A stretch of 64,000 bases of DNA from a virus (lineage: Duplodnaviria > Heunggongvirae > Uroviricota > Caudoviricetes). How positions within the stretch are numbered: position 1 is the first letter of the stretch; each line of letters begins with the position of its first letter. The position numbers and the translations under genes were made by a program. Where the stretch lies: IMG/VR virus record IMGVR_UViG_3300020049_016248; one strand, 5' to 3'. Positions 10,703 to 29,997 of this stretch are shown one piece after another. The notes beneath the pieces are model-generated. The model made no database searches. It had not been told where the DNA came from and was given only the letters and a program-made list of their open reading frames with translations.

Positions 10703-11494
10703 ATGGACTTAAATAAAGAAATTTACTTAACTAAACAAGAGTTTTCTTTCACTAGAGAAGAAAATATTTTATTAAACCTATTTATTGACTACCCTCAAGT
10801 TCTTAATATCTTAACAAGGCATAAAGCTTTTATTGTAGGTGGTGCACTTACTTCTGTATTTTCCAATACTAAAATAAACGACTTAGATATATATTTTTTA
10901 TCTGAAGAAGACTTAATACAATGTGAAAAAGAGTTGCTTAATATAAGTAGAAGTAAGTTTCAAACTAAAAATGCAACTACCTTTTTACACTTGATAAATG
11001 TTCCTTTACAAATAATAAAAAAAATAATCAAACCAACTGTTGAAGATATATTTGATGAGTTTGATTTTACAGTTTGCATGGCAAGTTATAGTTTTGAGAA
11101 AAGAGAATTTATCTTCCACTATGACTTCTTTAAACATCTTGCACAAAGAGAATTAACTTTCAACACTAATAGTAAAAACCCAGTTCATGCTTTATTAAGA
11201 GTTGAAAAATATAAATCACGTGGTTTTACTTTCAAACAAAAAGAATTATTTAAAGTAATTGGTAATATTGTTGCTATGAAAATTAATACTAATGAAGAAA
11301 TGGCTTCTTTATTAGAAGGTATGTATGGAGAGAGTACAAAAGAAATTGTTAAAGCTTTAAGAACTCCTACTTTAGATAAAGAAAATTTTGATTTAAGTAA
11401 ATTTTTACAAATATTAGATGATTCATACAATCATGGGTCAATTGCACTCGCAAAGAGTTCTACAATTACTCCTCTTGACGATCTTCCTTTCTAG
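10703..11494 (+). CDS. hypothetical protein, possible nucleotidyltransferase-fold protein
   Basis: FIVGGALTSVFSNTKINDLDIYF resembles the G[GS]...DxD motif of the Pol-beta-like NTase superfamily. Weak. Confidence 0.35.
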   Translation: MDLNKEIYLTKQEFSFTREENILLNLFIDYPQVLNILTRHKAFIVGGALTSVFSNTKINDLDIYFLSEEDLIQCEKELLNISRSKFQTKNATTFLHLINVPLQIIKKIIKPTVEDIFDEFDFTVCMASYSFEKREFIFHYDFFKHLAQRELTFNTNSKNPVHALLRVEKYKSRGFTFKQKELFKVIGNIVAMKINTNEEMASLLEGMYGESTKEIVKALRTPTLDKENFDLSKFLQILDDSYNHGSIALAKSSTITPLDDLPF

Positions 11495-11596
11495 TCACCA
11501 AGGGTATCTATAGATATTTTAATTTTAGTTTTTAGTTGAATAGAATTTATATAATTTGAGGGTGTTAAAAAAATAAACAACCAAATAATATAACGT

Positions 11597-12769
11597 ATGA
11601 CAAAAACAGTAACAAAACCAAAAGACCCTAAAACAGTAGTATTTTCAGGTGTTTTTATGAAACTTGCCGACATGAAAGGTGAAAAGAAATTAATCATCTC
11701 ACCTCAGCAAGAGCCTTTATCTCCAACAGAAGCAATTGTTAAACCAGAAATTCAAGCTCAATTTAATAGCTCTGAATGGTATCAAGGTGATTTACTTCAA
11801 ACTGATGAAGGTTTCACTCCAACAGGAACATTGAAAGCTTTAAAAACAAAACCATCTCAAGATGATTTGAAAGCTGTTCGTTCTCGTGTTGAAGCTGCTT
11901 ATTCTGAAATTGCTGCTTTAAAAACTGCATGGGAAGATTACAAGCAATATGAATTTAAAATTGCATCTGGTATTGCAGAAGTTCCAGCAGGGTTAGAAAT
12001 TGACGACAAAGTATGGAACTTGATTTGTACGTCTGCAAAAATTGACAAATACATTCTTTTATTAGGACCTAAAGGTTGTGGTAAAACAGAAACTGCTAAA
12101 CAATTAGCTGCTGCAACAGGTATGGAACTTGTATCTTTCAATATGGGAGCTGCATTTAAACCAAAACAAATGTTTGCTGGAATGTTACAAGCAGAAAACG
12201 GTGACACTGTGTTTATCGAATCTGAATTCTTGAAAGCTTTCCAATCAGAAACACCAACATTAATTTTCTTGGATGAGTTAACTCGTACTCCACAAGTAGC
12301 TACAAACTATTTGATGACAATCCTTGACCGTAACCAATCTTATATTTACATTGAAGAATTAGGTAAACGTGTTTACCGTGGTTCAGGTGTAAGATTTATC
12401 TGCGCTGGTAACGTAGGGTCACAATATACAGATACACGTACAATTGACGGTGCATTCTGGGATCGTTTTATTAAATTGCCAGTGGATTACTTGTCACAAG
12501 CAAAAGAAGAAAAACTTGTTATGTCTCGTGCACCAAAAGCTAATCCAAAAGCAGTAAAAACTTTGATTGACCGTGCAAAGAAAACTCGCGAAGCTGAAAA
12601 ATCTGGTAAATTAAGTTCAGCAATTTCAACACGTCAGTTGATTGATATGGCTCACTACCTTGAATTAGGGTTTACAGTTGAAGAAGTTTTTGAAAACATT
12701 TTCTTAAATAACTTCATCAATGGAAACAATGATGAGCGTTCAGAAATCAAGGCAATCTGCCAATCATAG
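11597..12769 (+). CDS. cobS: CobS-like MoxR-family AAA+ ATPase
   Basis: Walker A LLLGPKGCGKTETAKQLA, Walker B LIFLDELTR, sensor region. Paired with a downstream vWA protein as in CobS/CobT and CbbQ/CbbO. Confidence 0.8.
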   Translation: MTKTVTKPKDPKTVVFSGVFMKLADMKGEKKLIISPQQEPLSPTEAIVKPEIQAQFNSSEWYQGDLLQTDEGFTPTGTLKALKTKPSQDDLKAVRSRVEAAYSEIAALKTAWEDYKQYEFKIASGIAEVPAGLEIDDKVWNLICTSAKIDKYILLLGPKGCGKTETAKQLAAATGMELVSFNMGAAFKPKQMFAGMLQAENGDTVFIESEFLKAFQSETPTLIFLDELTRTPQVATNYLMTILDRNQSYIYIEELGKRVYRGSGVRFICAGNVGSQYTDTRTIDGAFWDRFIKLPVDYLSQAKEEKLVMSRAPKANPKAVKTLIDRAKKTREAEKSGKLSSAISTRQLIDMAHYLELGFTVEEVFENIFLNNFINGNNDERSEIKAICQS

Positions 12770-12795
12770 TTACCAAGTATTACATTGAAATGTAT

Positions 12796-12827
12796 AAAGC
12801 CGCTAGGTTGTTTACTTTAGCGGCTTT
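12796..12827 (+). terminator. hairpin (aaagccgcta / tagcggcttt) between cobS and cobT, overlapping promoter-like motif copy 1
   Basis: 10-bp perfect inverted repeat with an 11-12 nt loop; the downstream T-run is weak. Confidence 0.35.
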
Positions 12828-12835
12828 ATCTTTAG
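12810..12835 (+). promoter_or_regulatory. promoter-like bipartite motif GTTTAC-N11-TATCTTTAG (copy 1)
   Basis: Exact match to a motif repeated 6 times in the window; ATG at 12860. Confidence 0.5.
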
Positions 12836-12859
12836 TTAAATTTAAAAATCAATACTCAT

Positions 12860-14839
12860 ATGAAAAAAATAGGTTCAGCATCAGGTCCTTCTAAGGCTTC
12901 AAAACATTTAGGAAAAAAAATGTTTTCTCGTGATAAAAAACTTGAAGATAAAAAAATTACTAAACCTTTAGAAGAGGTACATCCAGATGAGAAATTTTAT
13001 AACGTTGACAAAAACGAATTAGAAGAAGTAATGTCTTCTAAAAACCGTACGTCAAGTTACTGGTTGCCAGAAACAGATATTCCTGATTACTTTGTGTTAC
13101 AACGTATGATGAAAAACATTAATACTGTTTGTGGTTTTATCACTGGAAAAGCATTGAGAGTTAATTTCTCTGAGATTGATGGTCCAAGTCATGCAGATTT
13201 TGCTGGTGAAGAAATTACTATTTCTATCGGCTCATTATATGACTACCGTATTCCTTTCCATATGAGATTGAATATTGTTTTAGCTTTAGGTATTCATGAA
13301 TCTTGGCATGTAAAATATACTACTCCTGCTATGGAGAGAATGTTAGTGCAAAATGGTTTAACAAAAAGTAAAATTTCTCGTTTTGGATTTGGTAAAACTC
13401 AAAAAGTTGCAGACTTTAGCCAAAGTGGTAAACTTTTCAAACATAACTTCCAAACATTTTTAGCAAATTGTGTTGAAGATAGACGTATTGAACATTTAGG
13501 GTTAATTGATTACCCTGGGTATGTTTACTACATGGAAGAGTTTCGTAAATACGGGTTGTGGTGTAACATTAATGCTTTGTTAAACCCTGTAACTAAACCA
13601 GATTGGAATAACCCAGACCATTTTTATGGTGCATTAACACAATACATTGCATTTAAAAATGTAGCTCCAGAAATCTTACCAGTATTTGCTTCTTATGGAC
13701 CGAATACAAAAGAATTCAAAGCTTTAACAGATAAAGTAGATGCAATTTGTAAAGACGTTCCATTAACTTACGATGACACAATGTCACAGTCTTTAGAATT
13801 GTTGAAATTGTATCCTGACGAGCAAAAAAACAAACAAGCTAAGGAAAAAAATTGTAACGGAGATGGTAACGGTAAAAATCAAGGACCACAAATGGCAGAA
13901 GGAACTGCTGCTGATGGTAAAACTGTAAAACCAAGTAAAGACGAAAAAGAAGCAATTGGTGACATAAAAGACGATAATCAACCTTATGCTACTTCTGAGC
14001 AAAAAGATATTAAAATTGAAGATCGTTTTGACAAACATGACCAATACAGCCACGTTCATATTGAACCTGCAGCAGAAGGTCGTTTTGACCAAGCTGTTTT
14101 TGACCAAGCAAGTGAAATTGCTCGTCAAATTAGCAAAAATTTATCTTTCTTAGATTCACGTTTCAATCGTGTAACAGAAGCTTTTGAAATGAGAAATGGT
14201 GAATTGGATGAGGATGCAATCTTTGGTTTAAAATTCAACAAGGATATTTTCTACGAAGAAGAAGAAGCTCCAGGTTACTCAATGGATTTTGGAATCTTGA
14301 TTGATGAGTCTGGTTCAATGCACGGTAGCAAAATTCGTGATGCTAAAATTGCTGCATTAGCTTTAGCAATTGCTTTGAAAGATAACCAACATATTAACTT
14401 GTTTGTTTACGGTCACACTGCAAATACAGGAGGTCACCCAATTACAATGTACAAATACTTTGACCAATTAGAAAAAGGTTGCCAAGATATTTCAACATTG
14501 TTTTCAGTAGAAGCAAGATCTAACAATGCAGATGGTTATGCAATTTCTGCAATGGGAGATATCTTAAACAAAGGTAAATCAAGACAAAAAGTTTTAATTG
14601 TTGCATCTGACGGTCAACCACACGCATCAGGTTACGGTGGAAGACAAGCTAACCAACATACTGCTCAAATGGTTCAAAAACTTGAAATGCAAGGAATGTT
14701 TGTTTGTCAAATTGCAATGGAAAACTTTAACTCTGCTGAAATGTTTACAAACTTTGTTCCTTATGACAAAAACAGCTTAGGAGTTAACTTGAAAAAAGTG
14801 TTGTTAAAAAAATTAGTAGAAATCTCAAACTTAGTATAA
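12860..14839 (+). CDS. cobT: CobT-like von Willebrand factor A (vWA) domain protein with N-terminal HExxH-containing region
   Basis: C-terminal MIDAS motif LIDESGSMHG (DxSxS) followed by IVASDGQP. HESWH motif near aa 150. Immediately downstream of the MoxR AAA+ gene. Confidence 0.75.
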   Translation: MKKIGSASGPSKASKHLGKKMFSRDKKLEDKKITKPLEEVHPDEKFYNVDKNELEEVMSSKNRTSSYWLPETDIPDYFVLQRMMKNINTVCGFITGKALRVNFSEIDGPSHADFAGEEITISIGSLYDYRIPFHMRLNIVLALGIHESWHVKYTTPAMERMLVQNGLTKSKISRFGFGKTQKVADFSQSGKLFKHNFQTFLANCVEDRRIEHLGLIDYPGYVYYMEEFRKYGLWCNINALLNPVTKPDWNNPDHFYGALTQYIAFKNVAPEILPVFASYGPNTKEFKALTDKVDAICKDVPLTYDDTMSQSLELLKLYPDEQKNKQAKEKNCNGDGNGKNQGPQMAEGTAADGKTVKPSKDEKEAIGDIKDDNQPYATSEQKDIKIEDRFDKHDQYSHVHIEPAAEGRFDQAVFDQASEIARQISKNLSFLDSRFNRVTEAFEMRNGELDEDAIFGLKFNKDIFYEEEEAPGYSMDFGILIDESGSMHGSKIRDAKIAALALAIALKDNQHINLFVYGHTANTGGHPITMYKYFDQLEKGCQDISTLFSVEARSNNADGYAISAMGDILNKGKSRQKVLIVASDGQPHASGYGGRQANQHTAQMVQKLEMQGMFVCQIAMENFNSAEMFTNFVPYDKNSLGVNLKKVLLKKLVEISNLV

Positions 14840-15477
14840 TGGCTGAAAAAAAAGAAGACGGTAAAGGGAGAAAACTTCCCTTTACTATCAAATACGAAAT
14901 CGAAGAAACTGCAGATGGTGCAGATGTAAACTTTAAGCTTGAAAACAGCGAAGAAGATCGTTTGTTTGCTTACATGGTTACTTTATGGGACCTTAGTCAA
15001 TTACTTGACAGAGCAATGGATGATAAACGTATTCCAACAGAAGTAAAAGCAGATTTCTTAACAGCTGCTAAGATTTTGAAAGATATGACCCAGGCTTGTA
15101 AAATGAAAGTAGAAGAAAAGCTTAAAATGGGAACTGAAACAACTATCATGGAAAGATTACAAAAACTTTTCAAAGATGTAGCAGGTGACATGAATGAAGA
15201 AAATCCTTTCAAAGATTTAAAAGACCTAGGTAAAGATGGAATGAAACCATCTAAGGTAGTCATCGGTGGAGATGTTCCAGAAGAAATTCGACAACAACTT
15301 GAGGATGCTCTCAAAGCACAATTCGGTGAAGATATTGACATCGGTAACATGTCAAAAAAAGAAACTGAAGAACTTATCAGTAAACGAAAATCAAAAGGTG
15401 AAAAGTCTGACGATGAAGTTGACTTTGATGATTTAGATAAAAAATCAAATAAAGATTCATCTGATATTGATATGTAA
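14839..15477 (+). CDS. highly acidic hypothetical protein
   Basis: 212 aa, D/E-rich throughout, with a C-terminal DDEVDFDDLD run. Confidence 0.5.
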   Translation: MAEKKEDGKGRKLPFTIKYEIEETADGADVNFKLENSEEDRLFAYMVTLWDLSQLLDRAMDDKRIPTEVKADFLTAAKILKDMTQACKMKVEEKLKMGTETTIMERLQKLFKDVAGDMNEENPFKDLKDLGKDGMKPSKVVIGGDVPEEIRQQLEDALKAQFGEDIDIGNMSKKETEELISKRKSKGEKSDDEVDFDDLDKKSNKDSSDIDM

Positions 15478-15604
15478 AAAATAACTGAAACTGTAACAAT
15501 TAAAAAAGTATTATGTAGAGTTACAGGGTTGAGGACCGAATAGGGGGGCTACATCTTCAGGAATCGGCTTAGACCTGTTATAGTTTCAGTTTAATTTTAA
15601 AGTT

Positions 15605-15985
15605 ATGAATTTACAAATTTATGCCAAAGGGACTAAGTTAAGGTTAACAAAAGATTGGAATTTCCAATGTCATAAAGATGGTTATGGGCTTATGCCTTAC
15701 TCACCTACAAATAGTTATACTTTACAAGCAGGTACAATCTTATCAATTCATGATATTGATATTCGAGGTAATTGCAAAGTTCCAAGGTCAGTTTGTTTTC
15801 TTATCCCTAAAAAAGGTTGTCCTAGTGATGATTTTTACGAAAGTCAAACTTTTCATGTTGACTTCAATCAATTAGATAATTTAGAGTTTGAGTTAAATTC
15901 AAAAGCTGACTTAAAGTTAAATTCAATCAAGTTGAAAGATATGATAAGTTCAATCAATGAAGAGTTAAACGTTAAAGAAAAATAA
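15605..15985 (+). CDS. hypothetical protein
   Basis: 126-aa ORF. Confidence 0.45.
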   Translation: MNLQIYAKGTKLRLTKDWNFQCHKDGYGLMPYSPTNSYTLQAGTILSIHDIDIRGNCKVPRSVCFLIPKKGCPSDDFYESQTFHVDFNQLDNLEFELNSKADLKLNSIKLKDMISSINEELNVKEK

Positions 15986-15986
15986 A

Positions 15987-16376
15987 ATGAACTTAGAAAG
16001 TATTATCCTTTTTATAAGTATTGTTGTTATACATTTTATTGCTGATTTCATTTTCCAGGATGAGAAATGGGCAGTAGGAAAAAGTCATTCTATAAAACTA
16101 TTAACTTTACATGTTAGTATGTATACAACTGTATGGTTTATGTTTTGTAACTTTTACTGCTATGCAACAGGGAATTATATGATATATTTTTTAGTTCCGA
16201 TAACTTTTGTTTCACATTGGTTAACAGATTACTTTACTTCTAAAGTCACAAGTCGTTTATATGCTGAAAAGAAATTCGGCTCATCTATACCTAATTTAAG
16301 TTTCTTTACAATGATTGGATTTGACCAAGTGTTACATTATATTCAATTATTCTTAACTTTTTATTTTTTAAGTTAG
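15987..16376 (+). CDS. hypothetical membrane protein
   Basis: 129 aa with 3-4 hydrophobic helices. Confidence 0.45.
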   Translation: MNLESIILFISIVVIHFIADFIFQDEKWAVGKSHSIKLLTLHVSMYTTVWFMFCNFYCYATGNYMIYFLVPITFVSHWLTDYFTSKVTSRLYAEKKFGSSIPNLSFFTMIGFDQVLHYIQLFLTFYFLS

Positions 16377-16421
16377 TTTGTAGTTTACAAGGTTTAAAGT
16401 ATCTTAAGGTAAAATTAAAAT

Positions 16422-16700
16422 ATGAAAATCACTACAATCATATCACAAATTGATATCTTATTAGAAGCTTTAAAACAAACACAAACAGTTTATAAGGTTT
16501 CTTACAAAGAACAAGTAGATATCTCTTGTTTAAAACTATTTTTAGACCTCTCTTTACTTAATTTAGATTTACTTTATTCTCTGCAAGAGAAATGTAAAGA
16601 ATTAGGTATTGAAGCTGAAATAACTATCCCAACTCACATTGATGGTGTCGCGGTAAAAGATTTACCTGTTGACAAGCAATGTTTAACAATTCATTTTTAA
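16422..16700 (+). CDS. hypothetical protein
   Basis: 92-aa ORF. Confidence 0.4.
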   Translation: MKITTIISQIDILLEALKQTQTVYKVSYKEQVDISCLKLFLDLSLLNLDLLYSLQEKCKELGIEAEITIPTHIDGVAVKDLPVDKQCLTIHF

Positions 16701-16948
16701 TATGGTTGAAAGAACTAAAACTTTAAGTTCTCGTGAACAGAAAGCACAGAGATTGAAAGAACAAGTATTAAAAACTGAACAAAGTTTAAACGCACTTATA
16801 TACTTATATGAAAAGCGTTACCTATATATTACAACAGTAAGTAAGTAAATAATTGTTTTAATTTATTTTATTTCCTACTTTTACATTAAGCATTAACAGG
16901 TATGCTTAATAATACTCCCTGTTTATAAATCTTATTATTTATTAATTA

Positions 16949-17473
16949 ATGAAAGAAGTAAGATTATGTGCTAATCAAGAGTGTGGTAAAGAGTTCACTG
17001 TTTGGTCTTCACAAAAGAAGAGATATTGTTGTAGAAAGTGCACAATGACTTTAGAAAGGCGAGAGTCAATAAGACAAGAGAAAACTGGAAAACCAAACCC
17101 CAAAGTATCAATTGCACTGAAAAATTCTATTTCAGCTAAAAAATATCAATTTAAAAAGGGAAAAGACAATCCAGCATTTGGACGAAATCAAACAGGTGAA
17201 GCAAATCACAATTGGAAAGGTGGAAAAACAAATAAGAATCAAAAATTAAGAAATAGTCCACAGTATAAAATTTGGCGACAAGCTTGTATGGAACGAGATC
17301 ACTTTCAATGTACTGATTGTGGTGCAAAGGGATATTTACAAGTACATCATATAAAAGAGGTCTCTAACTACCCTGAACTTATTTGGGAACTTGATAACGG
17401 AAAAACAGTTTGCGTGTCGTGTCACGAAAAAATACACGGAAGATTTATAGGAAAATTTAAACAACAAAAATAA
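16949..17473 (+). CDS. HNH homing endonuclease with N-terminal Cys-rich zinc-finger region
   Basis: C-terminal VHHIKEVSNYPELIWELDNGKTVCVSCHEKIH is an HNH motif; CxxC pairs at the N-terminus. Confidence 0.75.
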   Translation: MKEVRLCANQECGKEFTVWSSQKKRYCCRKCTMTLERRESIRQEKTGKPNPKVSIALKNSISAKKYQFKKGKDNPAFGRNQTGEANHNWKGGKTNKNQKLRNSPQYKIWRQACMERDHFQCTDCGAKGYLQVHHIKEVSNYPELIWELDNGKTVCVSCHEKIHGRFIGKFKQQK

Positions 17474-18366
17474 TGGAAAATAAAAAAAAATATGCCTGTA
17501 TAAGTTTATCAGGTGGGATGGACTCTTCTACTTTACTTCTTAAATTGTTAGTTGAAGGTTATAATGTTACTGCTTTATCTTTTAATTACGGTCAAAAACA
17601 CTCTGTAGAATTAGAAAGAGCAACTGAATTAGTGAAATATATTAAATCAGATTCAAAAGGGGCTGGAAAAAGACAATCTGGAACTTTAACTCATCAAATT
17701 ATTAAACTAGATGGTTTAGGACAATTGTTAAATTCAACTTTAGTTGAAGGTGGTTCAGATGTTCCAGAAGGGCATTATGCTGAAGAAAATATGAAAGACA
17801 CGGTTGTGCCAAATCGTAATAAAATATTTTCTTCAATTATTCAAGCAGTTGCTTTATCTATAGCAGAACAAAATAATACTGAATGCGCTATTGCTATGGG
17901 TATTCATGCTGGTGATCATGCTATCTACCCTGATTGTAGACAAGAGTTTAGAGATGCAGATTTTGAAGCTTTCAAACAAGGTAATTGGGGGTCTGAAAAA
18001 GTAATCATCTATACTCCTTATCTTCATACTGATAAATTCGGTATTTTAGAAGATGGGTTAGTTTGTTGTGAAAAGTTAAGTTTAGATTTTAACGAAATAT
18101 ATAAACGTACTAATACAAGTTATAAGCCAATTTTTATCAGAGAAGTTTCTAAACAAACAATAGACGATAAAGACTATTACACCCCTGAAAGTAATGGTAA
18201 ATGGTATTCAGATTATAAGTCAGCAAGTTCGGTAGAACGAATAGAAGCATTTATTAAATTAGGTAAACAAGACCCAGTTGAATATGCTGATGAAACAGGA
18301 CCTGTTTCATGGGAAACAGCAAAAGCTTATGTAGAGAAAGTTCTCGCTGAACATAGTAATAAATAG
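17473..18366 (+). CDS. queC: QueC-like PP-loop ATPase (7-cyano-7-deazaguanine synthase homolog) with divergent C-terminal extension
   Basis: SLSGGMDSST (SGGxDS PP-loop), LSFNYGQKH (FDYGQRH), VPNRNKIF (VPGRNILF) and YPDCRQEF (YPDCRDEF) align with E. coli QueC. The canonical C-terminal Zn-binding CxxC cluster is not evident. Confidence 0.75.
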   Translation: MENKKKYACISLSGGMDSSTLLLKLLVEGYNVTALSFNYGQKHSVELERATELVKYIKSDSKGAGKRQSGTLTHQIIKLDGLGQLLNSTLVEGGSDVPEGHYAEENMKDTVVPNRNKIFSSIIQAVALSIAEQNNTECAIAMGIHAGDHAIYPDCRQEFRDADFEAFKQGNWGSEKVIIYTPYLHTDKFGILEDGLVCCEKLSLDFNEIYKRTNTSYKPIFIREVSKQTIDDKDYYTPESNGKWYSDYKSASSVERIEAFIKLGKQDPVEYADETGPVSWETAKAYVEKVLAEHSNK

Positions 18367-18385
18367 TTAAATTATTTTAAATTAA

Positions 18386-18420
18386 GAACCTACGCTACGC
18401 GTAGGTTCTCCTTGTTTTTA
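18386..18420 (+). terminator. rho-independent terminator-like hairpin (gaacctacgc / gcgtaggttc) followed by a T-rich tract
   Basis: Perfect 10-bp stem with a 3-nt loop, then tccttgttttta. Confidence 0.6.
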
Positions 18421-18446
18421 ACGTTTTTTGTTATTTTCGGTAGGAA

Positions 18447-18472
18447 GTTTACAAGTTTAACCATATCTTTAG
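18447..18472 (+). promoter_or_regulatory. promoter-like motif GTTTAC-N11-TATCTTTAG (copy 2)
   Basis: Exact motif; followed by conserved ATTATAAATTAAAAC and an ATG at 18497. Confidence 0.5.
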
Positions 18473-18496
18473 ATTATAAATTAAAACATATAGCAA

Positions 18497-18834
18497 TGAG
18501 TTATAAAAAATTCAAAATGACTGAAGAAGAGTTTATCGATTATTGCGAATCTCTTACTGAACAAGAATTGAAAAGATTTCAATTAGAGTCAAAAAAGGAT
18601 GATATTCAAAGAGCACACCATTGGCTTTATATTGCATGTATTACAATGGTTTTAGCATCATTTTCTACAAACTGGGCTAAACATGTAGCAGATTCTACAT
18701 TATTATATGTTACTTGCTTTATAATTACAATAGTTTCAATTTTTTTCGTTTTCGGTTTACTTAAAAGAATAAAACAAGAAAAATTAATGTATAAAATGTT
18801 AGAAATTTTCTACAAAGAAAACAATATCCTTTAA
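18497..18834 (+). CDS. hypothetical membrane protein (the ORF-track start at 18412 is probably too early)
   Basis: First ATG downstream of the promoter-like motif; two TM helices. Confidence 0.45.
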
Positions 18835-18836
18835 TC

Positions 18837-19016
18837 ATGGCAAAGAAAAAAGAAATTATCAAATTTGACCCCGAAGAAGTTAGAAAAGGGTTAAAAGGTA
18901 TTCGCAGACAAGAAGAAATTGATAACCAATTGCGAATACCTACTCATACTGTTCAAAAAAGTAAAAAAGAATACACTCGTAAACGTAAACATAAGAAAAA
19001 TTTTGAAGTTGAATAA
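18837..19016 (+). CDS. small basic protein (59 aa)
   Basis: ATG 18837 to TAA 19014-19016. K/R-rich. Below the ORF-track length cutoff. Confidence 0.3.
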   Translation: MAKKKEIIKFDPEEVRKGLKGIRRQEEIDNQLRIPTHTVQKSKKEYTRKRKHKKNFEVE

Positions 19017-19023
19017 TTTTATA

Positions 19024-19032
19024 TATCTTTAG
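19024..19032 (+). promoter_or_regulatory. variant promoter-like -7 box TATCTTTAG (upstream hexamer GTTGAA) ahead of the cassette array
   Basis: Matches the 3' half of the repeated promoter motif. Confidence 0.3.
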
Positions 19033-19066
19033 TAAAAAATAAATTTAAAGTTCTGAACCTCGCATT

Positions 19067-19086
19067 ACATATACACCTTGTTATAC
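19067..19086 (+). repeat. isolated 3' box ACACCTTGTTATAC (core-site-like GTTATAC) at the head of the array; possible attI-like boundary
   Basis: Almost identical to the 3' end of element D (tacaccttgttatatgc) and followed by the same cacggtttattaatg. Confidence 0.35.
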
Positions 19087-19144
19087 ACAGTACGGTTTAT
19101 TAATGTTGAATGCTGATACAAAGAATAATTAAAATTAAAAAAAT

Positions 19145-19477
19145 ATGCACAAACAAAAGGAAGTAAAAATAAATGTTGATGATAAAATACAACCACTAAT
19201 TCAATTTATATTTGATAGATTAACTGGTTTGATACCAATAGCATCTTGTATAGGTGGAGATGAATCACAAAACGAAAGTATGGATTGTTATATACTACTA
19301 ATAGTTAGGAATCATAATCATCTAAATCATCTAATGGATTTATGTTCATCTTGGCATTGTCAGTATATCAAACCAAATGGTGAAACTGGAAATGTACCAA
19401 CATATAGAATAAGTATTTCTAATTTAAACGATGTGTTGGATAAATTGAATTTGATAGATGAAAATTATATTTTTTAA
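19145..19477 (+). CDS. cassette-like small ORF 1, hypothetical
   Basis: 110 aa. Confidence 0.45.
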   Translation: MHKQKEVKINVDDKIQPLIQFIFDRLTGLIPIASCIGGDESQNESMDCYILLIVRNHNHLNHLMDLCSSWHCQYIKPNGETGNVPTYRISISNLNDVLDKLNLIDENYIF

Positions 19478-19591
19478 TTTACACCGAACTTAATTTGATA
19501 CACGAATATAGTATTGTGTATAACGTTCGGGCGGTTGGCGTTCGTTGCCGACTTTGGAACAAGAAACTTTAACTTTAAAAATAAATTTGAT

Positions 19592-19834
19592 ATGGAAAAC
19601 AAAACTTCAACAAGCCACGAAAACGGCAATGACGCTAACCGCTTGTTAGCACCAGTTATTTTTTGGCAACGCTTTGACCAAGTTAAACCACAAGGCGATG
19701 CGGAATATTTGGTGTGCAATACAGATGGCGTTATTCGAGTTAGTTACTTTGATGGCAAAGATTGGGGATATTTAGCTATTGTAAAAGAAAATATTACGCA
19801 TTGGTCAATACTTCCGAGTGTGCCAGTCATATAA
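19592..19834 (+). CDS. cassette-like small ORF 2, hypothetical (start moved to the first ATG)
   Basis: MENKTSTSHENG...; the ORF-track start at 19514 lies within the intergenic repeat. Confidence 0.4.
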   Translation: MENKTSTSHENGNDANRLLAPVIFWQRFDQVKPQGDAEYLVCNTDGVIRVSYFDGKDWGYLAIVKENITHWSILPSVPVI

Positions 19835-19839
19835 TTGGT

Positions 19840-19930
19840 GCTAACGGTTGGCAATATATGTAGTTGCCATGCACGAACTTAAAAATTAAATATAAACCTT
19901 AATAGGCAATTACATATATTGCTTGTTAGC
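19840..19930 (+). repeat. attC-like imperfect palindromic element B (GCTAACGG...GCTTGTTAGC)
   Basis: 5' box GCTAAC and 3' box GTTAGC are complementary. Inner arms ggcaatatatgtagttgcc / ggcaattacatatattgc with a ~37-nt loop. Extrahelical bases lie between the boxes. Confidence 0.55.
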
Positions 19931-19943
19931 AAATCGTAAAATT

Positions 19944-20099
19944 ATGGCATCAGAGAAGAAAAAACGTAAAGCAGATAAAAGACTTCATTGGGGTAGAGGT
20001 AAGAACTTCATGAAGTGGGTTGGTAAAGGCATCAAAGGTCTTTGTTATTTCACATCATCTCAAAGACAAGCAGATAAGAAGTTCGACATTGACGAATAA
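19944..20099 (+). CDS. cassette-like small ORF 3 (51 aa, basic)
   Basis: ATG 19944 to TAA 20097-20099. Not in the ORF track (<60 aa). Confidence 0.35.
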   Translation: MASEKKKRKADKRLHWGRGKNFMKWVGKGIKGLCYFTSSQRQADKKFDIDE

Positions 20100-20109
20100 T
20101 TTTATGTTT

Positions 20110-20201
20110 GCTAACGGTCGGCAATATGAAATGGTTGCCTTGTAAGACGTTTAAAATTTAGTAATAGCCTATCGGCAACTTTTTTATATTGCTTGTTAGG
20201 C
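20110..20201 (+). repeat. attC-like element C (GCTAACGG...GCTTGTTAGGC)
   Basis: Same architecture as element B, with a different stem sequence. Confidence 0.55.
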
Positions 20202-20216
20202 ACAGTAATTTATCAA

Positions 20217-20474
20217 ATGAAAATATATCAAACAAATGCAGCACTTGGTTATAGACAACTTGCATTTCTAATTAGATTAGATAAAAGTGCGAATGGACAC
20301 AACTACCTATGTATAGGCACACAAAATATTAATGACAACGAAATGTATCAAATTGGTAAAATAGTTGAAGATTTAGAAGATTTTTATTTGGAAGATACAA
20401 CTTTCAAAATAACTGATTCTGAATTAAACGGAACTTATCTGTTTGATTACTGGGTTTCTCATTATTGTGCCTAA
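20217..20474 (+). CDS. cassette-like small ORF 4, hypothetical
   Basis: First ATG after element C; the ORF-track TTG start lies inside the repeat. Confidence 0.45.
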   Translation: MKIYQTNAALGYRQLAFLIRLDKSANGHNYLCIGTQNINDNEMYQIGKIVEDLEDFYLEDTTFKITDSELNGTYLFDYWVSHYCA

Positions 20475-20564
20475 CGGTTGGGTGTATGAGAAGGTTTGCT
20501 TAGATGAACTTTCAAATTAATACAAATACATGTAGCAAACTTTCTTATACACCTTGTTATATGC
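20469..20564 (+). repeat. attC-like element D (GCCTAACGG...CCTTGTTATATGC)
   Basis: 5' box overlaps the stop codon of ORF 4. 20-bp stem ggtgtatgagaaggtttgct / agcaaactttcttatacacc with a 33-nt loop. Confidence 0.55.
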
Positions 20565-20579
20565 TTGCACGGTTTATTA

Positions 20580-20930
20580 ATGATAAAATTAATTAAAATG
20601 AAAAAGTTTAAATTTGAAGATTTACAATTAATTAATGTAGGCGATATTTATGCTATTACTTATAACGATAAAATAATTACCCTTGAAGGTAAAACCACAT
20701 TTTCGACAATAAGTAATGCGAAAAATATGCTTCAAAAAGTATTAACTGCTAATTATCATCAAGGACATTATTGGCACAAAGGTAAAGAAAATACCTTTTC
20801 TGATGAAGGTGGGCATATGAGAAACGGGGGTGTTATGGCTGGTTTGGATAAAATATTTAAAAAATTAGGCAAAGAACTAACTGAAGAATTACTTTCTAAT
20901 GGCGTTTTTGTGATTAAAAAAATACAATAG
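20580..20930 (+). CDS. cassette-like small ORF 5, hypothetical
   Basis: The ORF-track start at 20565 is TTG inside the repeat; first ATG at 20580. Confidence 0.45.
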   Translation: MIKLIKMKKFKFEDLQLINVGDIYAITYNDKIITLEGKTTFSTISNAKNMLQKVLTANYHQGHYWHKGKENTFSDEGGHMRNGGVMAGLDKIFKKLGKELTEELLSNGVFVIKKIQ

Positions 20931-20959
20931 TAATTTAGTAGCACGTTTGTAGTGCTTGC

Positions 20960-21052
20960 ATATAACGGCTTGGTGTATGAGAAGGTTTGCTTTGATGAAC
21001 TTCAAATTTACACTGAACTTGATAGCAAACTTTCTCATACACCTTGTTATAG
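20960..21052 (+). repeat. attC-like element E (ATATAACGG...CCTTGTTATAG), close paralog of element D
   Basis: Stem sequence nearly identical to D; loop diverged. Confidence 0.55.
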
Positions 21053-21096
21053 TTAGTTTTATTTTTTATTTTACAAAATTATAAATTTTCATAGAT

Positions 21097-21396
21097 ATGA
21101 CTGAAGAACAAATGAAAGAATATGTAGTAAATGGTGGAAAACTTTTTACTATCACTTTGATTGACACTATTAGAGATGGTGGAACAAAGATTATAAAAAC
21201 AACAAAAGACGATTATTATATCCATAAGGATAGTAAAAAGTTTCATTCTGGTTACACACCAAGTGAAGAAAATTTAATAACAGATTTTTTGTTAATAGAA
21301 TACTTGGTTGAACGAATTGAAACATACATCAAAAGATGTGTGGAAGATGTTGAACGAAACAAAAATCTGTTAATAGAAATTCAAAATAAAAAATAA
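21097..21396 (+). CDS. cassette-like small ORF 6, hypothetical
   Basis: 99 aa. Confidence 0.45.
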   Translation: MTEEQMKEYVVNGGKLFTITLIDTIRDGGTKIIKTTKDDYYIHKDSKKFHSGYTPSEENLITDFLLIEYLVERIETYIKRCVEDVERNKNLLIEIQNKK

Positions 21397-21402
21397 TATT
21401 AA

Positions 21403-21474
21403 CTATAACGGTTCGCAGATAAGCGAAGGCAAAGATTTAGAAACTAAAATTTTAACTTAAAAACAGAATATAAT
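21403..21474 (+). repeat. degenerate or partial attC-like element F (CTATAACGG + short hairpin ttcgc/gcgaa + loop-like motif), no clear 3' box
   Basis: Shares the 5' box and the gaaactaaaattttaacttaaaa loop-like motif with element B. Confidence 0.35.
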
Positions 21475-21723
21475 ATGAAAACGAGAACATCAATTTACCA
21501 CCGCACCTTTGCTTTTGCTTATGTGCTGTTAGTAGCTGTTATTTTTTGCGGTTGCGAAGGTAACGTAGAGCAGAAATCAACACCATATAGGCTTAGTGGC
21601 GGTCTTAATGTAGAAATAGTGATAATTGATAGTTGCGAATACATCATAATAAATGGTGGAAATGCAACTTGGGGAAGCCACAAAGGGAACTGTAAATTTT
21701 GTGCAGAACGTAGCAAAAAATAA
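21475..21723 (+). CDS. cassette-like small ORF 7, putative secreted protein or lipoprotein
   Basis: N-terminal hydrophobic segment ending in CGCEGN. Confidence 0.45.
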   Translation: MKTRTSIYHRTFAFAYVLLVAVIFCGCEGNVEQKSTPYRLSGGLNVEIVIIDSCEYIIINGGNATWGSHKGNCKFCAERSKK

Positions 21724-21726
21724 TTG

Positions 21727-21823
21727 CTACTAACGTTTTGCGTATATACGAGGTACGCCTTAACGAAAATTTCAAATTATAAACAAATGCTTGTAGGCGT
21801 ATCTTGTATATACGCTGTTAGGC
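21727..21823 (+). repeat. attC-like element G (CTACTAACG...CTGTTAGGC)
   Basis: Arms gcgtatatacgaggtacgcc / ggcgtatcttgtatatacgc; 3' box GTTAGGC fits the integron core GTTRRRY. Confidence 0.55.
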
Positions 21824-21835
21824 GAAGTACTTATT

Positions 21836-22075
21836 ATGGATTTTAGAAAAACATTAAAATACCTACGCATTGTGCAAACGGTATCAAACGAAGAAAGGCA
21901 CAAACAAGGATTGAAAAGATTAGGTCGTGGCTATTTCAATGCACACAGATTTAACCCTTACAATCCGCTTAGTTACATAGCACTCATTATTATACTAATT
22001 GTAGGTATATTAATGTTTGGCTTTGTCGGATTTTGGAAAGAAACTACAACGCTCAATCCGTTTCGGTGGGATTAG
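21836..22075 (+). CDS. cassette-like small ORF 8, membrane protein
   Basis: 79 aa with one strong TM helix. Confidence 0.45.
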   Translation: MDFRKTLKYLRIVQTVSNEERHKQGLKRLGRGYFNAHRFNPYNPLSYIALIIILIVGILMFGFVGFWKETTTLNPFRWD

Positions 22076-22081
22076 TATTTC

Positions 22082-22161
22082 GCCTAACGGTATCAAGCTA
22101 AAAGCTGACCGCCTTTATAAGCGGTTTGGTGATGGCGGTTTGATTTTAGGTTGTGTTATAT
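22082..22161 (+). repeat. attC-like element H (GCCTAACGG...GTGTTATAT), more degenerate
   Basis: 5' box GCCTAAC fits the inverse-core RYYYAAC; internal hairpin accgcctttataagcggt. Confidence 0.4.
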
Positions 22162-22183
22162 TTAGGTTTTTAAATTTTTAGCG

Positions 22184-22393
22184 ATGGAAGAAATGATAAA
22201 TTGTAAATGCGAAAAATGCGGAGTTGATTACGAGAAACCTGCAACTTTCAAAAAATGGAATGAAGAAAATACAAACGTGTTTTTTAGATGGAGTTTAGCA
22301 TTTTGCGATATGTGCAGGCGAGAAAAAGAACGTGAAGCATTGAAAGCATTACCAAATGTTTTGAGTGCGTTGGCAGAAAATTTAAAAACTTGA
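22184..22393 (+). CDS. cassette-like small ORF 9, zinc-ribbon-like protein
   Basis: CKCEKCG...CDMCRRE, two CxxC pairs. Confidence 0.45.
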   Translation: MEEMINCKCEKCGVDYEKPATFKKWNEENTNVFFRWSLAFCDMCRREKEREALKALPNVLSALAENLKT

Positions 22394-22455
22394 ATATAAC
22401 ATAAATATATAACAACTGTCTTTTAAAACAGTAATAAAATTAACAGTTTTAAGTC

Positions 22456-23271
22456 ATGGAAACACTCATTGAAAGTAAAGTTAATCGATTTGTTGAAAAG
22501 TTAGAGTTAAAACGTTACTCTAAAAACACAAAAAATATATATCTTTCAAACTTTAAATCTTTTTTAAACTATTTTAAAGGAGATATAGATAATTTAAAAG
22601 ATTCAGATATTTGTAATTATATTTTAACACAATCTAAAAACAAGTCGTACTCTTATCAAAATGTGTTAACAAATACTATTAAATTTTATTACGAAAAGGT
22701 AAATTATAGAAAAAGAAGGTTTTATAAAATAGAAAGACCTAAACAAGAAAGAAAGTTACCACAAGTGATTTCTAAAGAAGAAGTTTTAAAATCTATAGAG
22801 TTAATACCTAATTTAAAACATAAAGCAATAATTTCACTAGCTTTTTCTACTGGAATGAGAGTAAGTGAGATATGTAATTTGAAAATAGTAGATATTGATT
22901 CAAAGAGAATGATTTTAAGAATTTTAGATAGTAAAGGTAAAAAAGATAGAATAGTTCCTTTATCTGAAAGTATACTAACTTTGTTGAGAAGTTATTGGCA
23001 AGAATATAAACCTAAATTTTATTTATTTGAATCCTATAAACCTGGGGTTAAATATTCGACAGCGAGTTGTAGACAAATATGGAATAAATATAAAATAAAT
23101 AAGCAAAGTACTTTTCACACTCTTAGACATAGTTTTGCTACAACTATGTTAGAAAATAAAACTGATATTAGGACAATTCAAAGACTTTTAGGTCATTCTA
23201 ATTTGAAAACAACAGAAATATATACCCACGTTTCTACTGATTATTTGAAAACTTTAAAGTTACCTATATAA
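22456..23271 (+). CDS. tyrosine site-specific recombinase (XerC/XerD-like size, 271 aa)
   Basis: Catalytic residues in order: R (GMRVSE), K, HxxR (HTLRHSFAT), H (LGHSNL), Y (EIYTHV). N-terminal SAM-like core-binding domain. Confidence 0.8.
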   Translation: METLIESKVNRFVEKLELKRYSKNTKNIYLSNFKSFLNYFKGDIDNLKDSDICNYILTQSKNKSYSYQNVLTNTIKFYYEKVNYRKRRFYKIERPKQERKLPQVISKEEVLKSIELIPNLKHKAIISLAFSTGMRVSEICNLKIVDIDSKRMILRILDSKGKKDRIVPLSESILTLLRSYWQEYKPKFYLFESYKPGVKYSTASCRQIWNKYKINKQSTFHTLRHSFATTMLENKTDIRTIQRLLGHSNLKTTEIYTHVSTDYLKTLKLPI

Positions 23272-23297
23272 ACATATTGATTTTATTAAGGTTTGAA

Positions 23298-23323
23298 GTT
23301 TACTAATTATACTGTATCTTTAG
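23298..23323 (+). promoter_or_regulatory. promoter-like motif GTTTAC-N11-TATCTTTAG (copy 3)
   Basis: Exact motif plus the conserved GTTATAAATTTAAAAC extension; ATG at 23347. Confidence 0.5.
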
Positions 23324-23346
23324 GTTATAAATTTAAAACCAATAAA

Positions 23347-26459: not shown

Positions 26460-26515
26460 CTTACGCTGCGCGTAGATTTCTCTTATTTTCATTTTTTTGT
26501 TATTTTTAGTAGGAA

Positions 26516-26541
26516 GTTTACTAATTTAACTGTATCTTTAG
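26516..26541 (+). promoter_or_regulatory. promoter-like motif GTTTAC-N11-TATCTTTAG (copy 4)
   Basis: Exact motif; preceded by the short palindrome tacgc-tgc-gcgta; ATG at 26579. Confidence 0.5.
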
Positions 26542-26578
26542 GTATCTTAATTAATCAAACAACCTAAACTTACAATTT

Positions 26579-27607: not shown

Positions 27608-27617
27608 ATTGTTGGAA

Positions 27618-27643: not shown

Positions 27644-27669
27644 ATTATAAATTTAAAACATATACACCT

Positions 27670-29451: not shown

Positions 29452-29457
29452 CAATAT

Positions 29458-29996: not shown

Positions 29997-29997
29997 C

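What the first reader, a model, noticed from the sequence alone, without database searches (positions are those of the whole stretch)
17473..18366. Stand-alone QueC homolog with a non-canonical C-terminus, downstream of an HNH endonuclease
The protein aligns with QueC across the PP-loop (SGGMDSST), the NYGQKH substrate motif, and the VPNRNKIF and YPDCRQEF blocks. It is 297 aa, compared with ~230 for QueC, and the usual C-terminal zinc-binding CxxC...C cluster is not recognisable. In phages, QueC homologs belong to 7-deazaguanine DNA hypermodification pathways (preQ0, dG+, dADG with DpdA, FolE, QueD, QueE) that protect DNA from restriction. No partner genes are in this window, so the gene either works with host enzymes or with genes elsewhere, or the divergent C-terminus signals a different amidation chemistry.
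Basis: partly seen in the sequence, partly recalled or inferred. Interest (0 to 1): 0.55.

Follow-up and report, generated by a model that had tools for sequence, protein, structure and literature searches.

The report
Orphan zinc-less QueC in jumbo phage
A roughly 220 kb phage carries an intact, phage-specific version of the preQ0-making enzyme QueC in which all four zinc-binding cysteines are replaced; unlike 79 of 80 relatives it has no pathway partner nearby, and a homing endonuclease has inserted exactly at its start codon.

Summary
ORF 17473-18366 encodes a 297 aa QueC-family protein with every canonical motif except the zinc site, an HNH gene lies directly upstream, and the window holds no partner genes.

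The unusual C-terminus is not peculiar to this gene. It marks a large, essentially phage-only QueC clade in which the four Zn ligands are S216, D247, S250 and S253, with a beta-hairpin insert and a 25 aa tail. In 79 of 80 relatives this clade sits within 1.7 kb of DpdA, QueD, QueE or FolE. Its only cultured member, Flavobacterium phage immuto, has DNA fully modified with a preQ0-derived base. A different chemistry is therefore not supported.

What is unusual is the context. The source is a jumbo phage (219,579 bp contig). Profile searches found no partner across about 101 kb (-25.5 to +75.6 kb). About 54% of the genome could not be reached, so whether a DpdA exists is unresolved.

The HNH is a QueC-locus homing endonuclease. 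It is absent from a sister strain, inserted exactly at QueC's start codon, flanked by a divergent tract, and its homologs sit 5' of QueC in two unrelated phages.

Verdict: a new variant of a known kind, of moderate interest.

The parts
17473..18366 (+). QueC-family gene (297 aa) of the phage-specific zinc-less clade. It has the PP-loop SGGMDS (13-18), YGQKHSVE (39-46), VPNRN (112-116), YPDC (152-155) and TNTSY (213-217). A beta-hairpin insert (220-243) and SDYKSASSVER (246-256) stand in place of C..CxxCxxC, and there is a C-terminal extension (273-297).
16949..17473 (+). Free-standing HNH homing endonuclease gene (174 aa) inserted exactly at the 5' end of QueC. It uses the leader and first two codons that belong to QueC in the HNH-less sister strain, and its stop overlaps the QueC start (TAATG).
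17485..19042 (.). Tract of elevated divergence from the sister strain (78.6% nucleotide identity, against 95-98% in the flanks on both sides). It covers QueC and about 700 bp downstream, and is interpreted as a co-conversion or allele-replacement tract linked to the endonuclease.
18385..18419 (+). Terminator-like hairpin (11 bp stem, 6 GC pairs, 3 nt loop) followed by a T-run, 19 bp after the QueC stop codon. It closes the HNH-QueC transcription unit.

Best explanation
The gene encodes a functional member of a phage-specific, zinc-site-lacking clade of QueC. QueC is 7-cyano-7-deazaguanine (preQ0) synthase, which performs the ATP- and ammonia-dependent conversion CDG -> ADG -> preQ0.

Shown:
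- It keeps the QueC fold and every canonical catalytic motif, including the essential Tyr next to the first zinc ligand.
- All four zinc ligands are replaced by Ser/Asp with the CxxCxxC spacing preserved.
- This state is invariant in a large clade that normally sits inside DpdA-QueC-QueD-QueE-FolE clusters.
- It is a resident gene of a roughly 220 kb jumbo phage, present at the same locus in two strains and intact in both.
- It is not within 43 kb upstream or 57 kb downstream of any partner gene.
- The HNH gene in front of it is a strain-specific insertion at the QueC start codon, with a divergent tract beside it.

Inferred:
- The enzyme still makes preQ0 without zinc.
- In this phage it feeds a 7-deazaguanine pathway whose other steps come either from genes in the unsurveyed 54% of the genome or from the host's own FolE, QueD and QueE.
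- The HNH spreads by cleaving HNH-less QueC alleles during co-infection and being copied in together with adjacent QueC sequence.
For: Family and fold:
- Pfam QueC scores 125 bits.
- Foldseek's best hits are QueC structures 3BL5 and 2PG3. The AF2 model has pTM 0.80.
- hhalign against canonical bacterial QueCs gives probability 100% and maps the ligands to S216, D247, S250 and S253.
- The motifs SGGxDS, YxQxHxxE, VPxRN, YPDC and the essential Tyr (E. coli Y189 = Y217 here) defined in PMC13329287 are all present.

Clade:
- All 120 best homologs carry the Ser/Asp motif and no CxxCxxC.
- Invariant residues include S216, D247, S250 and S253.
- Only 3 unplaced MAG contigs among 185,579 species-representative genomes carry the clade. 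Among 50,697 phage records, only immuto shares the C-terminus.

Pathway link:
- 79 of 80 relatives have a partner within 1.7 kb, and 38 of 38 loci with adequate flanks do.
- Immuto encodes FolE, QueD, QueE, QueC, QueF, DpdA3 and DpdN, and its DNA carries fdPreQ1.

Residence and integrity:
- Sister strain L302 has QueC at the same locus.
- dN/dS is 0.19 overall and 0.09 for the core.

Orphan status. Genome size.

Homing endonuclease: presence/absence polymorphism and divergent tract; exact junction; HNH homologs 5' of QueC in two unrelated phages with discordant identities, HNH 74% against QueC 57%; inteins in other QueC homologs.
Against: - Zinc is described as required for QueC, and mutating the four Cys residues abolishes QatC function (PMC13329287, PMC13639016). 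No zinc-less QueC has been assayed, so activity is inferred from context only.
- In immuto the host could in principle supply preQ0.
- No DpdA, QueD, QueE or FolE was found in 46% of the genome, whereas relatives keep them within 1.7 kb. The phage may therefore lack them entirely, in which case a DNA-modification role here would fail.
- The two strain alleles are as divergent from each other (79%) as from other clade members. The low dN/dS therefore mostly reflects selection before or outside this genome.
- Co-conversion is inferred from the divergence pattern, and no donor allele was identified.
Confidence: 0.6

Rival explanations
1. QueC is truly stand-alone. The phage has no DpdA or other pathway genes, and QueC acts on CDG made by the host. 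The preQ0 produced would feed the host queuosine pathway, possibly to modify phage-encoded tRNA-Tyr(GUA) and tRNA-Asn(GUU). Alternatively, the enzyme simply drains the CDG pool.
For: - No partner gene in about 101 kb, although relatives keep partners within 1.7 kb.
- The window carries a tRNA array that includes the Q-family tRNAs Tyr(GUA) and Asn(GUU), and a HisRS-like ORF lies upstream.
- QueC is retained intact in two strains.
Against: - No phage is known to use a lone QueC this way.
- A host able to make CDG normally has its own QueC, which would make the phage copy redundant.
- 54% of the genome has not been seen.
- Immuto already shows QueC 11 kb away from its partners.
- DpdA subgroups have been missed before (HVTV-1; and PMC10516641).
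Confidence: 0.27
2. The altered C-terminus changes the chemistry. The enzyme might stop at the amide (an ADG synthase like the proposed QueC*), or it might attach a deazaguanine to a protein as Cap9 and QatC do.
For: - The zinc motif, conserved in QueC, Cap9 and QatC, is missing.
- The NCBIfam equivalog score is below its cut-off.
- Most relatives lack QueF, so their end product (preQ0 or ADG) is not known from sequence.
Against: - All substrate- and ATP-contacting motifs of canonical QueC are retained.
- The clade co-occurs with DpdA, QueD, QueE and FolE exactly as canonical phage QueC does.
- Immuto adds QueF, which needs preQ0, and its DNA carries a preQ1 derivative.
- There are no QatC or Cap9 model hits in PADLOC, only a generic QueC match at 48 bits, and no QatB- or CdnD-like partner or terminal extension domains.
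- The bacterial QueCs closest to the clade share the same core motifs and the VER.EAF...DP..Y end.
Confidence: 0.07
3. The gene is a non-functional passenger, carried into or kept in the genome only because it is linked to the homing endonuclease.
For: - The HNH-QueC pair is the only segment shared with otherwise unrelated phages.
- There is no pathway context.
- The low dN/dS may predate its residence in this genome.
Against: - The sister strain has QueC at the same locus without the HNH, so QueC predates the endonuclease here.
- Both alleles are full-length and keep all clade-invariant residues.
- The gene is identical on at least 7 contigs from several samples.
- It has its own coupled start and a terminator.
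Confidence: 0.06

Closest known systems
[quoted passage not shown]
   Same: 60.7% identical over the full length, including the zinc-less C-terminus, the hairpin insert and the terminal extension. It is a phage gene in a low-GC, Bacteroidota-type phage.
   Different: Immuto encodes QueD, QueE, FolE, DpdA3, DpdN and QueF 11-18 kb downstream, and its DNA carries fdPreQ1. The window's phage has none of these within about 101 kb. The rest of the two genomes is only distantly related (replication proteins 25-45% identical). Immuto has no HNH in front of QueC.
Canonical bacterial QueC, preQ0 synthase (EC 6.3.4.20; PDB 3BL5 and 2PG3; E. coli b0444)
   Same: It has the same fold and the same PP-loop, YxQxHxxE, VPxRN and YPDC motifs and essential Tyr. 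The profile-profile alignment gives probability 100% across residues 4-272.
   Different: The C(x)8CxxCxxC zinc site is replaced by S...DxxSxxS. There are three insertions or extensions (+67 aa). The score is below the NCBIfam equivalog cut-off. The clade is restricted to phages.
Phage DpdA/preQ0 DNA-modification clusters (Hutinet 2019; Cui 2023)
   Same: This QueC clade is a standard component of such clusters: DpdA directly upstream, with QueD, QueE, FolE and an NTP pyrophosphatase downstream.
   Different: In this phage the cluster is absent around QueC, and DpdA, the signature gene, was not found in 46% of the genome.
Cap9 (type IV CBASS) and QatC (QatABCD), the QueC-like defence enzymes
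   Same: They share the QueC-like Rossmann core and use CDG and ATP (PDB 9NTO is the fourth Foldseek hit).
   Different: They keep the zinc motif, have extra N- and C-terminal domains and dedicated protein substrates (CdnD, QatB), and are bacterial defence genes. None of this applies here.
Free-standing homing endonucleases of large phages and intein-borne endonucleases (from my own knowledge: T4 seg and mob genes beside conserved nucleotide-metabolism genes)
   Same: The HNH gene is inserted next to a highly conserved gene. It shows presence/absence polymorphism between strains, a divergent tract beside the insertion, and homologs at the same position in unrelated genomes. Other QueC homologs carry inteins with LAGLIDADG domains.
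   Different: A QueC-targeting homing endonuclease has not, to my knowledge, been described. Cleavage specificity was not tested.

Membership tests
Canonical QueC (preQ0 synthase, PF06508 cluster 1 of PMC13329287) | SGGxDS pyrophosphate-binding loop | tested here: met
   S13-G-G-M-D-S18; invariant in alignments A1 and A2
Canonical QueC (preQ0 synthase, PF06508 cluster 1 of PMC13329287) | YxQxHxxE, VPxRN and YPDC substrate/ATP motifs, plus the essential Tyr in the zinc region (E. coli Y189) | tested here: met
   Y39GQKHSVE46, V112PNRN116, Y152PDC155 and Y217 in TNTSY; motif definitions
Canonical QueC (preQ0 synthase, PF06508 cluster 1 of PMC13329287) | C(x)8CxxCxxC zinc-binding motif | tested here: not met
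   hhalign places S216, D247, S250 and S253 at the four ligand positions. The Pfam match stops at profile position 184 of 210, and no CxxCxxC is present
Canonical QueC (preQ0 synthase, PF06508 cluster 1 of PMC13329287) | Curated score cut-offs | tested here: inconclusive
   Pfam 125 bits against a cut-off of 22 (met); NCBIfam equivalog TIGR00364 114 bits against 150.3 (not met)
Canonical QueC (preQ0 synthase, PF06508 cluster 1 of PMC13329287) | QueC fold | tested here: met
   The AF2 model (pTM 0.80) has Foldseek best hits 3BL5 and 2PG3, with TM 0.65-0.74 normalised to the target
Canonical QueC (preQ0 synthase, PF06508 cluster 1 of PMC13329287) | Catalyses CDG -> preQ0 | not testable with these tools
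   Inferred only from clade context and the modified DNA of phage immuto
   Identity is 63-79% to the 120 best homologs, all of which have the Ser/Asp motif, and 61% to immuto
Phage 7-deazaguanine DNA-modification system | A DpdA (TGT-family DNA transglycosylase) encoded by the same genome | tested here: inconclusive
   None found by HMM, tblastn, Pfam or PHROG from about -25.5 kb to +75.6 kb.
Phage 7-deazaguanine DNA-modification system | Clustering of QueC with QueD, QueE and FolE | tested here: not met
   Relatives have a partner within 1.7 kb in 79 of 80 loci. Here there is none within 43 kb upstream or 57 kb downstream
Phage 7-deazaguanine DNA-modification system | 7-Deazaguanine nucleosides in virion DNA | not testable with these tools
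   Requires LC-MS/MS of the phage DNA
QatC / Cap9 defence-type QueC homologs | Family-specific profile match, extra N/C-terminal domains, a partner protein substrate (QatB or CdnD), retained zinc motif | tested here: not met
   PADLOC gives only the generic QueC model at 48 bits over the PP-loop. There are no extension domains, no such neighbours, and the gene is in a phage
Gat-QueC (archaeosine/dG+ synthase) | Glutamine amidotransferase domain fused to QueC | tested here: not met
   The protein begins 12 residues before the PP-loop, and QueC is the only Pfam domain
Free-standing HNH homing endonuclease (ORF 16949-17473) | HNH nuclease motif | tested here: met
   Pfam HNH covers residues 121-164 and 14 PHROG HNH families match
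Free-standing HNH homing endonuclease (ORF 16949-17473) | Presence/absence polymorphism at a fixed site next to a conserved gene, with a divergent tract beside it, and recurrence at the same site in unrelated genomes | tested here: met
   Absent from sister strain L302, with flanks 95-98% identical and the QueC tract 78.6%. The junction is at the QueC start codon. Homologs lie 5' of QueC in L298/L299 and L300/L301
Free-standing HNH homing endonuclease (ORF 16949-17473) | Site-specific cleavage of the endonuclease-less allele | not testable with these tools
   Requires an in vitro cleavage or co-infection assay

The most novel reading that the evidence does not exclude
The lone, zinc-independent QueC is a counter-defence enzyme. 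With no DpdA in the genome, it would convert the host's CDG pool to preQ0. That would starve QueC-like defence enzymes (Cap9 in type IV CBASS, QatC in QatABCD), which need CDG to deazaguanylate and activate their partner proteins. The loss of the zinc site would make the enzyme independent of metal supply during infection.
Probability: 0.05. Interest if true: 0.8.

Novelty: new variant of a known kind. Interest (0 to 1): 0.45.

Why it matters
Three points matter.

1. The current literature treats the C(x)8CxxCxxC zinc site as a hallmark of QueC that is required for function. Here a very large phage clade has replaced all four ligands with Ser/Asp while keeping every catalytic motif, and it sits in working DNA-modification clusters. 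If the enzyme is active, the zinc site is dispensable. That redefines the family signature and explains why equivalog models under-call these genes.

2. A QueC kept without any nearby partner in a roughly 220 kb phage is an exception to an otherwise near-universal clustering rule. It shows either a dispersed pathway or a QueC-only strategy that depends on host CDG.

3. QueC emerges as a recurrent target of selfish elements: a dedicated HNH homing endonuclease, and inteins in other homologs. This gives a mechanism for allele exchange of DNA-modification genes between co-infecting phages.

Tried and rejected
- **Near-identical DNA in cultured phages:** none. An exact 54-mer and PrsW peptides searched in IMG/VR also found nothing, so the phage is not in that collection.
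- **Closing the genome from the flanks:** the upstream and downstream flanks do not overlap.
- **Genome-wide repeated motif as a multi-site handle for one metagenome scan:** only a local 15-mer was found, present three times.
- **Degenerate QueE-motif scan of JGI metagenomes, looking for a 219,579 bp contig:** the pattern was validated on held loci (43 of about 51 QueE-bearing loci, 0 of 77 bacterial loci). The collection scan stopped at 120 rows without showing that contig, so it was inconclusive.
- **HNH paralogs as handles elsewhere in the genome:** the two HNH genes in the window are unrelated, and the HNH family has no second member carrying the contig-length fingerprint.
- **A DpdA homolog search read by contig-length fingerprint:** not run. 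The families are star-like (DpdA median identity 53%, QueC 73%), and no relative is close to the resident allele, so the chance of the right protein appearing among 120 listed rows was judged below 10%.
- **Hidden DpdA among unannotated 260-360 aa window ORFs:** no TGT, PTPS, radical-SAM or GTP-cyclohydrolase hits in Pfam or PHROGs.
- **Nearest cultured relatives via DNA pol III alpha:** the best hit is 33% identical.
Full report
**1. The observation**

ORF 17473-18366 (+) encodes 297 aa. It matches Pfam QueC strongly (125 bits against a cut-off of 22), but only over profile positions 3-184 of 210. It falls below the NCBIfam QueC equivalog cut-off (114 against 150.3 bits) and matches PHROG 1550, 'QueC-like'. 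Solved QueC structures align by sequence only to residues 167-188. The ORF directly upstream (16949-17473) is an HNH endonuclease, and its stop codon overlaps the QueC start as TAATG. A terminator-like hairpin with a T-run follows the QueC stop at 18385-18419.

**2. What replaces the zinc site**

Alignment with E. coli QueC shows TLTCY...GCGHCAAC replaced by TNTSYKPI...SDYKSASSVER. A profile-profile alignment of 50 clade members against 16 canonical bacterial QueCs gives probability 100% over residues 4-272. It aligns canonical 'TWSCY..hC-GkCGtCvER.EAF' with 'TNTSY..[24-residue insert]..SDYKSASSVERIEAF'. The four ligands therefore become S216, D247, S250 and S253, with the CxxCxxC spacing kept, and all four are invariant across the 50 aligned clade members.

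The extra length comes from a variable insert (residues 58-72), the insert in the zinc loop (220-243) and a 25-residue tail (273-297). An AlphaFold2 model (mean pLDDT 79, pTM 0.80) shows a long beta-hairpin at 220-247, a helix at 251-263, a small beta pair and a terminal helix. Foldseek's best matches are QueC structures 3BL5 and 2PG3, then Cap9 (9NTO).

A 2026 survey of the family (PMC13329287) lists the canonical signature as SGGxDS, YxQxHxxE, VPxRN, YPDC, C(x)8CxxCxxC and an essential Tyr after the first Cys. It calls zinc 'required for function'. The QatC structure paper (PMC13639016) calls the zinc motif highly conserved in BsQueC, Cap9 and QatC and shows that a four-Cys mutant is dead. 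The window protein keeps every motif (Y39GQKHSVE46, V112PNRN116, Y152PDC155, Y217) except the Cys ligands. Neither these papers nor the phage deazaguanine papers mention a zinc-less QueC.

**3. The clade**

The protein database returns thousands of homologs. The best 120 are 63-79% identical, 283-337 aa long, and all have the Ser/Asp motif with no CxxCxxC. At the level of 50%-identity representatives, there are Cys-containing near relatives (for example TNTCY..CGKCGSCVER). There is also a second zinc-less pattern (..SGKSGSDIER), so the site has been lost in more than one way.

Among 185,579 species-representative prokaryotic genomes, only three short or unplaced MAG contigs carry the clade. 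All other hits are canonical QueCs of about 215-240 aa at 39% identity or less. Among 50,697 deposited phage genomes, only the Flavobacterium phage immuto isolates share the C-terminal region. The clade is therefore essentially phage-specific and known mostly from metagenomes.

**4. What the clade does**

Phage immuto (61% identical, colinear) encodes QueD, QueE, FolE, DpdA, a formyltransferase (DpdN) and QueF 11-18 kb downstream of its QueC. Cui et al. [quoted passage not shown] In its DNA they saw dA, dC and dT plus a 324 Da nucleoside identified as fdPreQ1, a preQ0-derived base, and its DNA resisted restriction enzymes whose sites contain G (PMC10516641).

I fetched 80 IMG/VR loci encoding relatives at 64-75% identity and scanned them with immuto's proteins.

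| Measure across the 80 relatives' loci | Result |
|---|---|
| At least one of DpdA, QueD, QueE, FolE present | 79 of 80 (the exception has only 69 bp of downstream flank) |
| Distance from QueC to nearest partner | median 408 bp, maximum 1.7 kb |
| Loci with >=3 kb upstream and >=6 kb downstream | 38 |
| Of those 38, with at least one partner | 38 |
| Of those 38, with DpdA / QueD / QueE / FolE | 34 / 35 / 29 / 34 |
| Of those 38, with all four | 23 |
| DpdA lying upstream of QueC | 65 of 67 (median gap 315 bp) |

The two closest non-self relatives with context, P0005 and P0003, also have QueD or DpdA next door.

The unusual C-terminus is therefore the normal state of the QueC that serves phage DpdA clusters. 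The idea that it signals a different chemistry is not supported, although it cannot be excluded biochemically.

**5. The context in this phage is exceptional**

None of immuto's partners hits the window by tblastn. Profile HMMs built from 42-57 relatives' DpdA, QueD, QueE and FolE, 24 NTP pyrophosphatases, and two sequences each of QueF and DpdN found nothing in any of six frames of the window and its first flanks. The best E-value was 0.25, against 533 bits for the QueC control. Pfam and PHROG scans of the other sizeable ORFs found no TGT, PTPS, radical-SAM or GTP-cyclohydrolase domains. None of 17 genes around QueC has a homolog within 10 kb of QueC in any of the 80 relatives.

Nine window proteins all report a longest contig of 219,579 bp, and sister strains lie on contigs of 245,140 and 191,278 bp. 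The window also has a tRNA array, DNA pol III alpha, a PolA-domain gene, tail-like genes and almost uniform strand use. Together these identify a jumbo phage. It has no close cultured relative (pol III alpha 33% at best).

By walking through overlapping assemblies of the same and sister strains I extended the survey to about -25.5 kb and +75.6 kb in window coordinates. That is about 101 kb, or 46% of the contig, and still contains no partner. The remaining ~118 kb could not be reached. Whether the genome encodes a DpdA is therefore unresolved. The literature also shows that DpdA subgroups have been overlooked before.

**6. The HNH is a QueC-locus homing endonuclease**

Its family is small, with 37 homologs. 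The homolog at 74% identity (P0318) and one at 56% (P0324) both sit immediately 5' of a clade QueC in two otherwise unrelated phages (L298/L299 and L300/L301). Those phages do have DpdA, QueD and other partners within 10 kb.

Similarity between the window and those phages is confined to the HNH-QueC segment, and the identities are discordant:

| Compared with | HNH identity | QueC identity |
|---|---|---|
| L298 | 74% | 57% |
| L300 | 56% | 64% |

A sister strain of the jumbo phage (L302) has the same neighbourhood (VWA-212-126-DUF3307-92-48) followed directly by a 304 aa QueC with no HNH. Its flanks are 95-98% identical to the window. The HNH is a clean insertion, and QueC plus about 700 bp downstream is only 78.6% identical.

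The junction is exact. The leader and first two codons of the sister strain's QueC are the leader and first two codons of the window's HNH. This is the pattern expected for homing with co-conversion, or for an old endonuclease-linked allele. No donor was identified, because the two alleles are as far from each other (79%) as from other clade members. Several more distant QueC homologs carry inteins, some with LAGLIDADG domains, near the GDH/YPDC region. Phage QueC is therefore a recurrent homing target.

**7. Is the gene functional here?**

It is present at the same locus in both strains, which shows that QueC predates the HNH in this lineage. It is full-length and keeps all clade-invariant residues. 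It is identical on at least 7 contigs from several samples. dN/dS between the alleles is 0.19, and 0.09 outside the two variable inserts, with dS about 0.9. Much of that divergence may predate residence in this genome, so this argues against decay rather than proving current selection.

**8. Explanation and rivals**

Best (0.6): this is a functional zinc-less phage QueC making preQ0, resident in a jumbo phage. Its pathway partners are either distant in the unseen 54% of the genome or supplied by the host, and a QueC-specific homing endonuclease has inserted at its start.

Rivals:
- Truly stand-alone use of host CDG, for Q-tRNA or CDG depletion (0.27). The window encodes tRNA-Tyr(GUA) and tRNA-Asn(GUU).
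- Altered chemistry (0.07).
- Non-functional passenger (0.06).

**9. Novelty and interest**

The gene family and the pathway are known, and immuto's copy is already annotated as QueC. Three things are new: recognition of a large phage-only clade lacking the 'hallmark' zinc site, the first clear orphan of that clade in a jumbo phage, and a homing endonuclease dedicated to the QueC locus. I rate it a new variant of a known kind, with interest 0.45.

Noticed in passing
Proteins P0122, P0133, P0146, P0153, P0181, P0151 (homologs): QueC homologs of 442-734 aa contain inteins (Pfam Intein_splicing, some with LAGLIDADG_3). Most are inserted near residues 140-155 by the GDH/YPDC motif, and one near residue 225. 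Phage QueC is a recurrent target of homing elements.
   Followed up: partly
Representative proteins P0131, P0136-P0138, P0143, P0145, P0146 compared with P0134, P0148; L298:5650-6492: A second zinc-less replacement pattern (..SGKSGSDIER, Ser/Ser/Asp) exists beside the DYKSASS pattern. Close relatives still have TNTCY..CGKCGSCVER. This suggests the zinc site was lost more than once within this branch of QueC.
   Followed up: partly
window 30705-31316; L303:4557-5042; L309:6661-7347(-); L306:9828-10586; L309:3696-4469; L311:4894-5721: The jumbo phage is rich in homing-endonuclease genes: a second, unrelated HNH in the window, a third HNH upstream, a LAGLIDADG, a NUMOD3 protein, and Cys-rich HNH-like ORFs of 257 and 275 aa. 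Some of these are strain-specific.
   Followed up: partly
window 19043-23328 and 26208-27934: These blocks are absent from sister strain L302. The first holds about ten small ORFs and a tyrosine recombinase/integrase (22456-23271), so it may be a strain-specific insertion or mobile block immediately downstream of the QueC tract.
   Followed up: no
window 19071-19085, 20547-20561, 21037-21051: The exact 15-mer ATACACCTTGTTATA occurs three times within 2 kb, each time ahead of a small ORF inside the strain-specific block. It may be a local promoter or regulatory motif. With mismatches allowed, the count is not above chance window-wide.
   Followed up: partly
window 29380-29997 and 31435-31508; L303:1582-2199: There is a tRNA array (Phe, Arg, Tyr-GUA, Asn-GUU, Gly x2, Lys), and a 205 aa HisRS-like ORF lies upstream of the window. 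Tyr, Asn and His tRNAs are queuosine substrates, which could matter if QueC feeds tRNA modification.
   Followed up: no
window 10703-14839: A Gad2-like nucleotidyltransferase is followed by a MoxR/CbbQ-type AAA ATPase and a 659 aa VWA (CobT-like) protein, just upstream of the QueC region. The function of this trio in the phage is unknown.
   Followed up: no
L006 (JGI Ga0206642_1013757) against window 12300-19117: This contig variant has the HNH truncated to 61 aa, window 14811-16183 missing and 16184-16544 inverted. QueC is still 100% identical. It could be a real rearranged strain or a misassembly.
   Followed up: no
window 66-2324 (continues upstream; L011:6543-10001) and window 9142-10668: The phage encodes a full DnaE-type DNA pol III alpha (1131-1152 aa, with a strain length difference) as well as a family A polymerase-domain gene. 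This is an unusual double polymerase complement.
   Followed up: no
P0028 (337 aa homolog): This protein carries a roughly 52-residue insertion flanked by a duplicated IAMGIHAGDH motif. It may be an insertion footprint or an assembly artefact at the same hot spot where the inteins sit.
   Followed up: no
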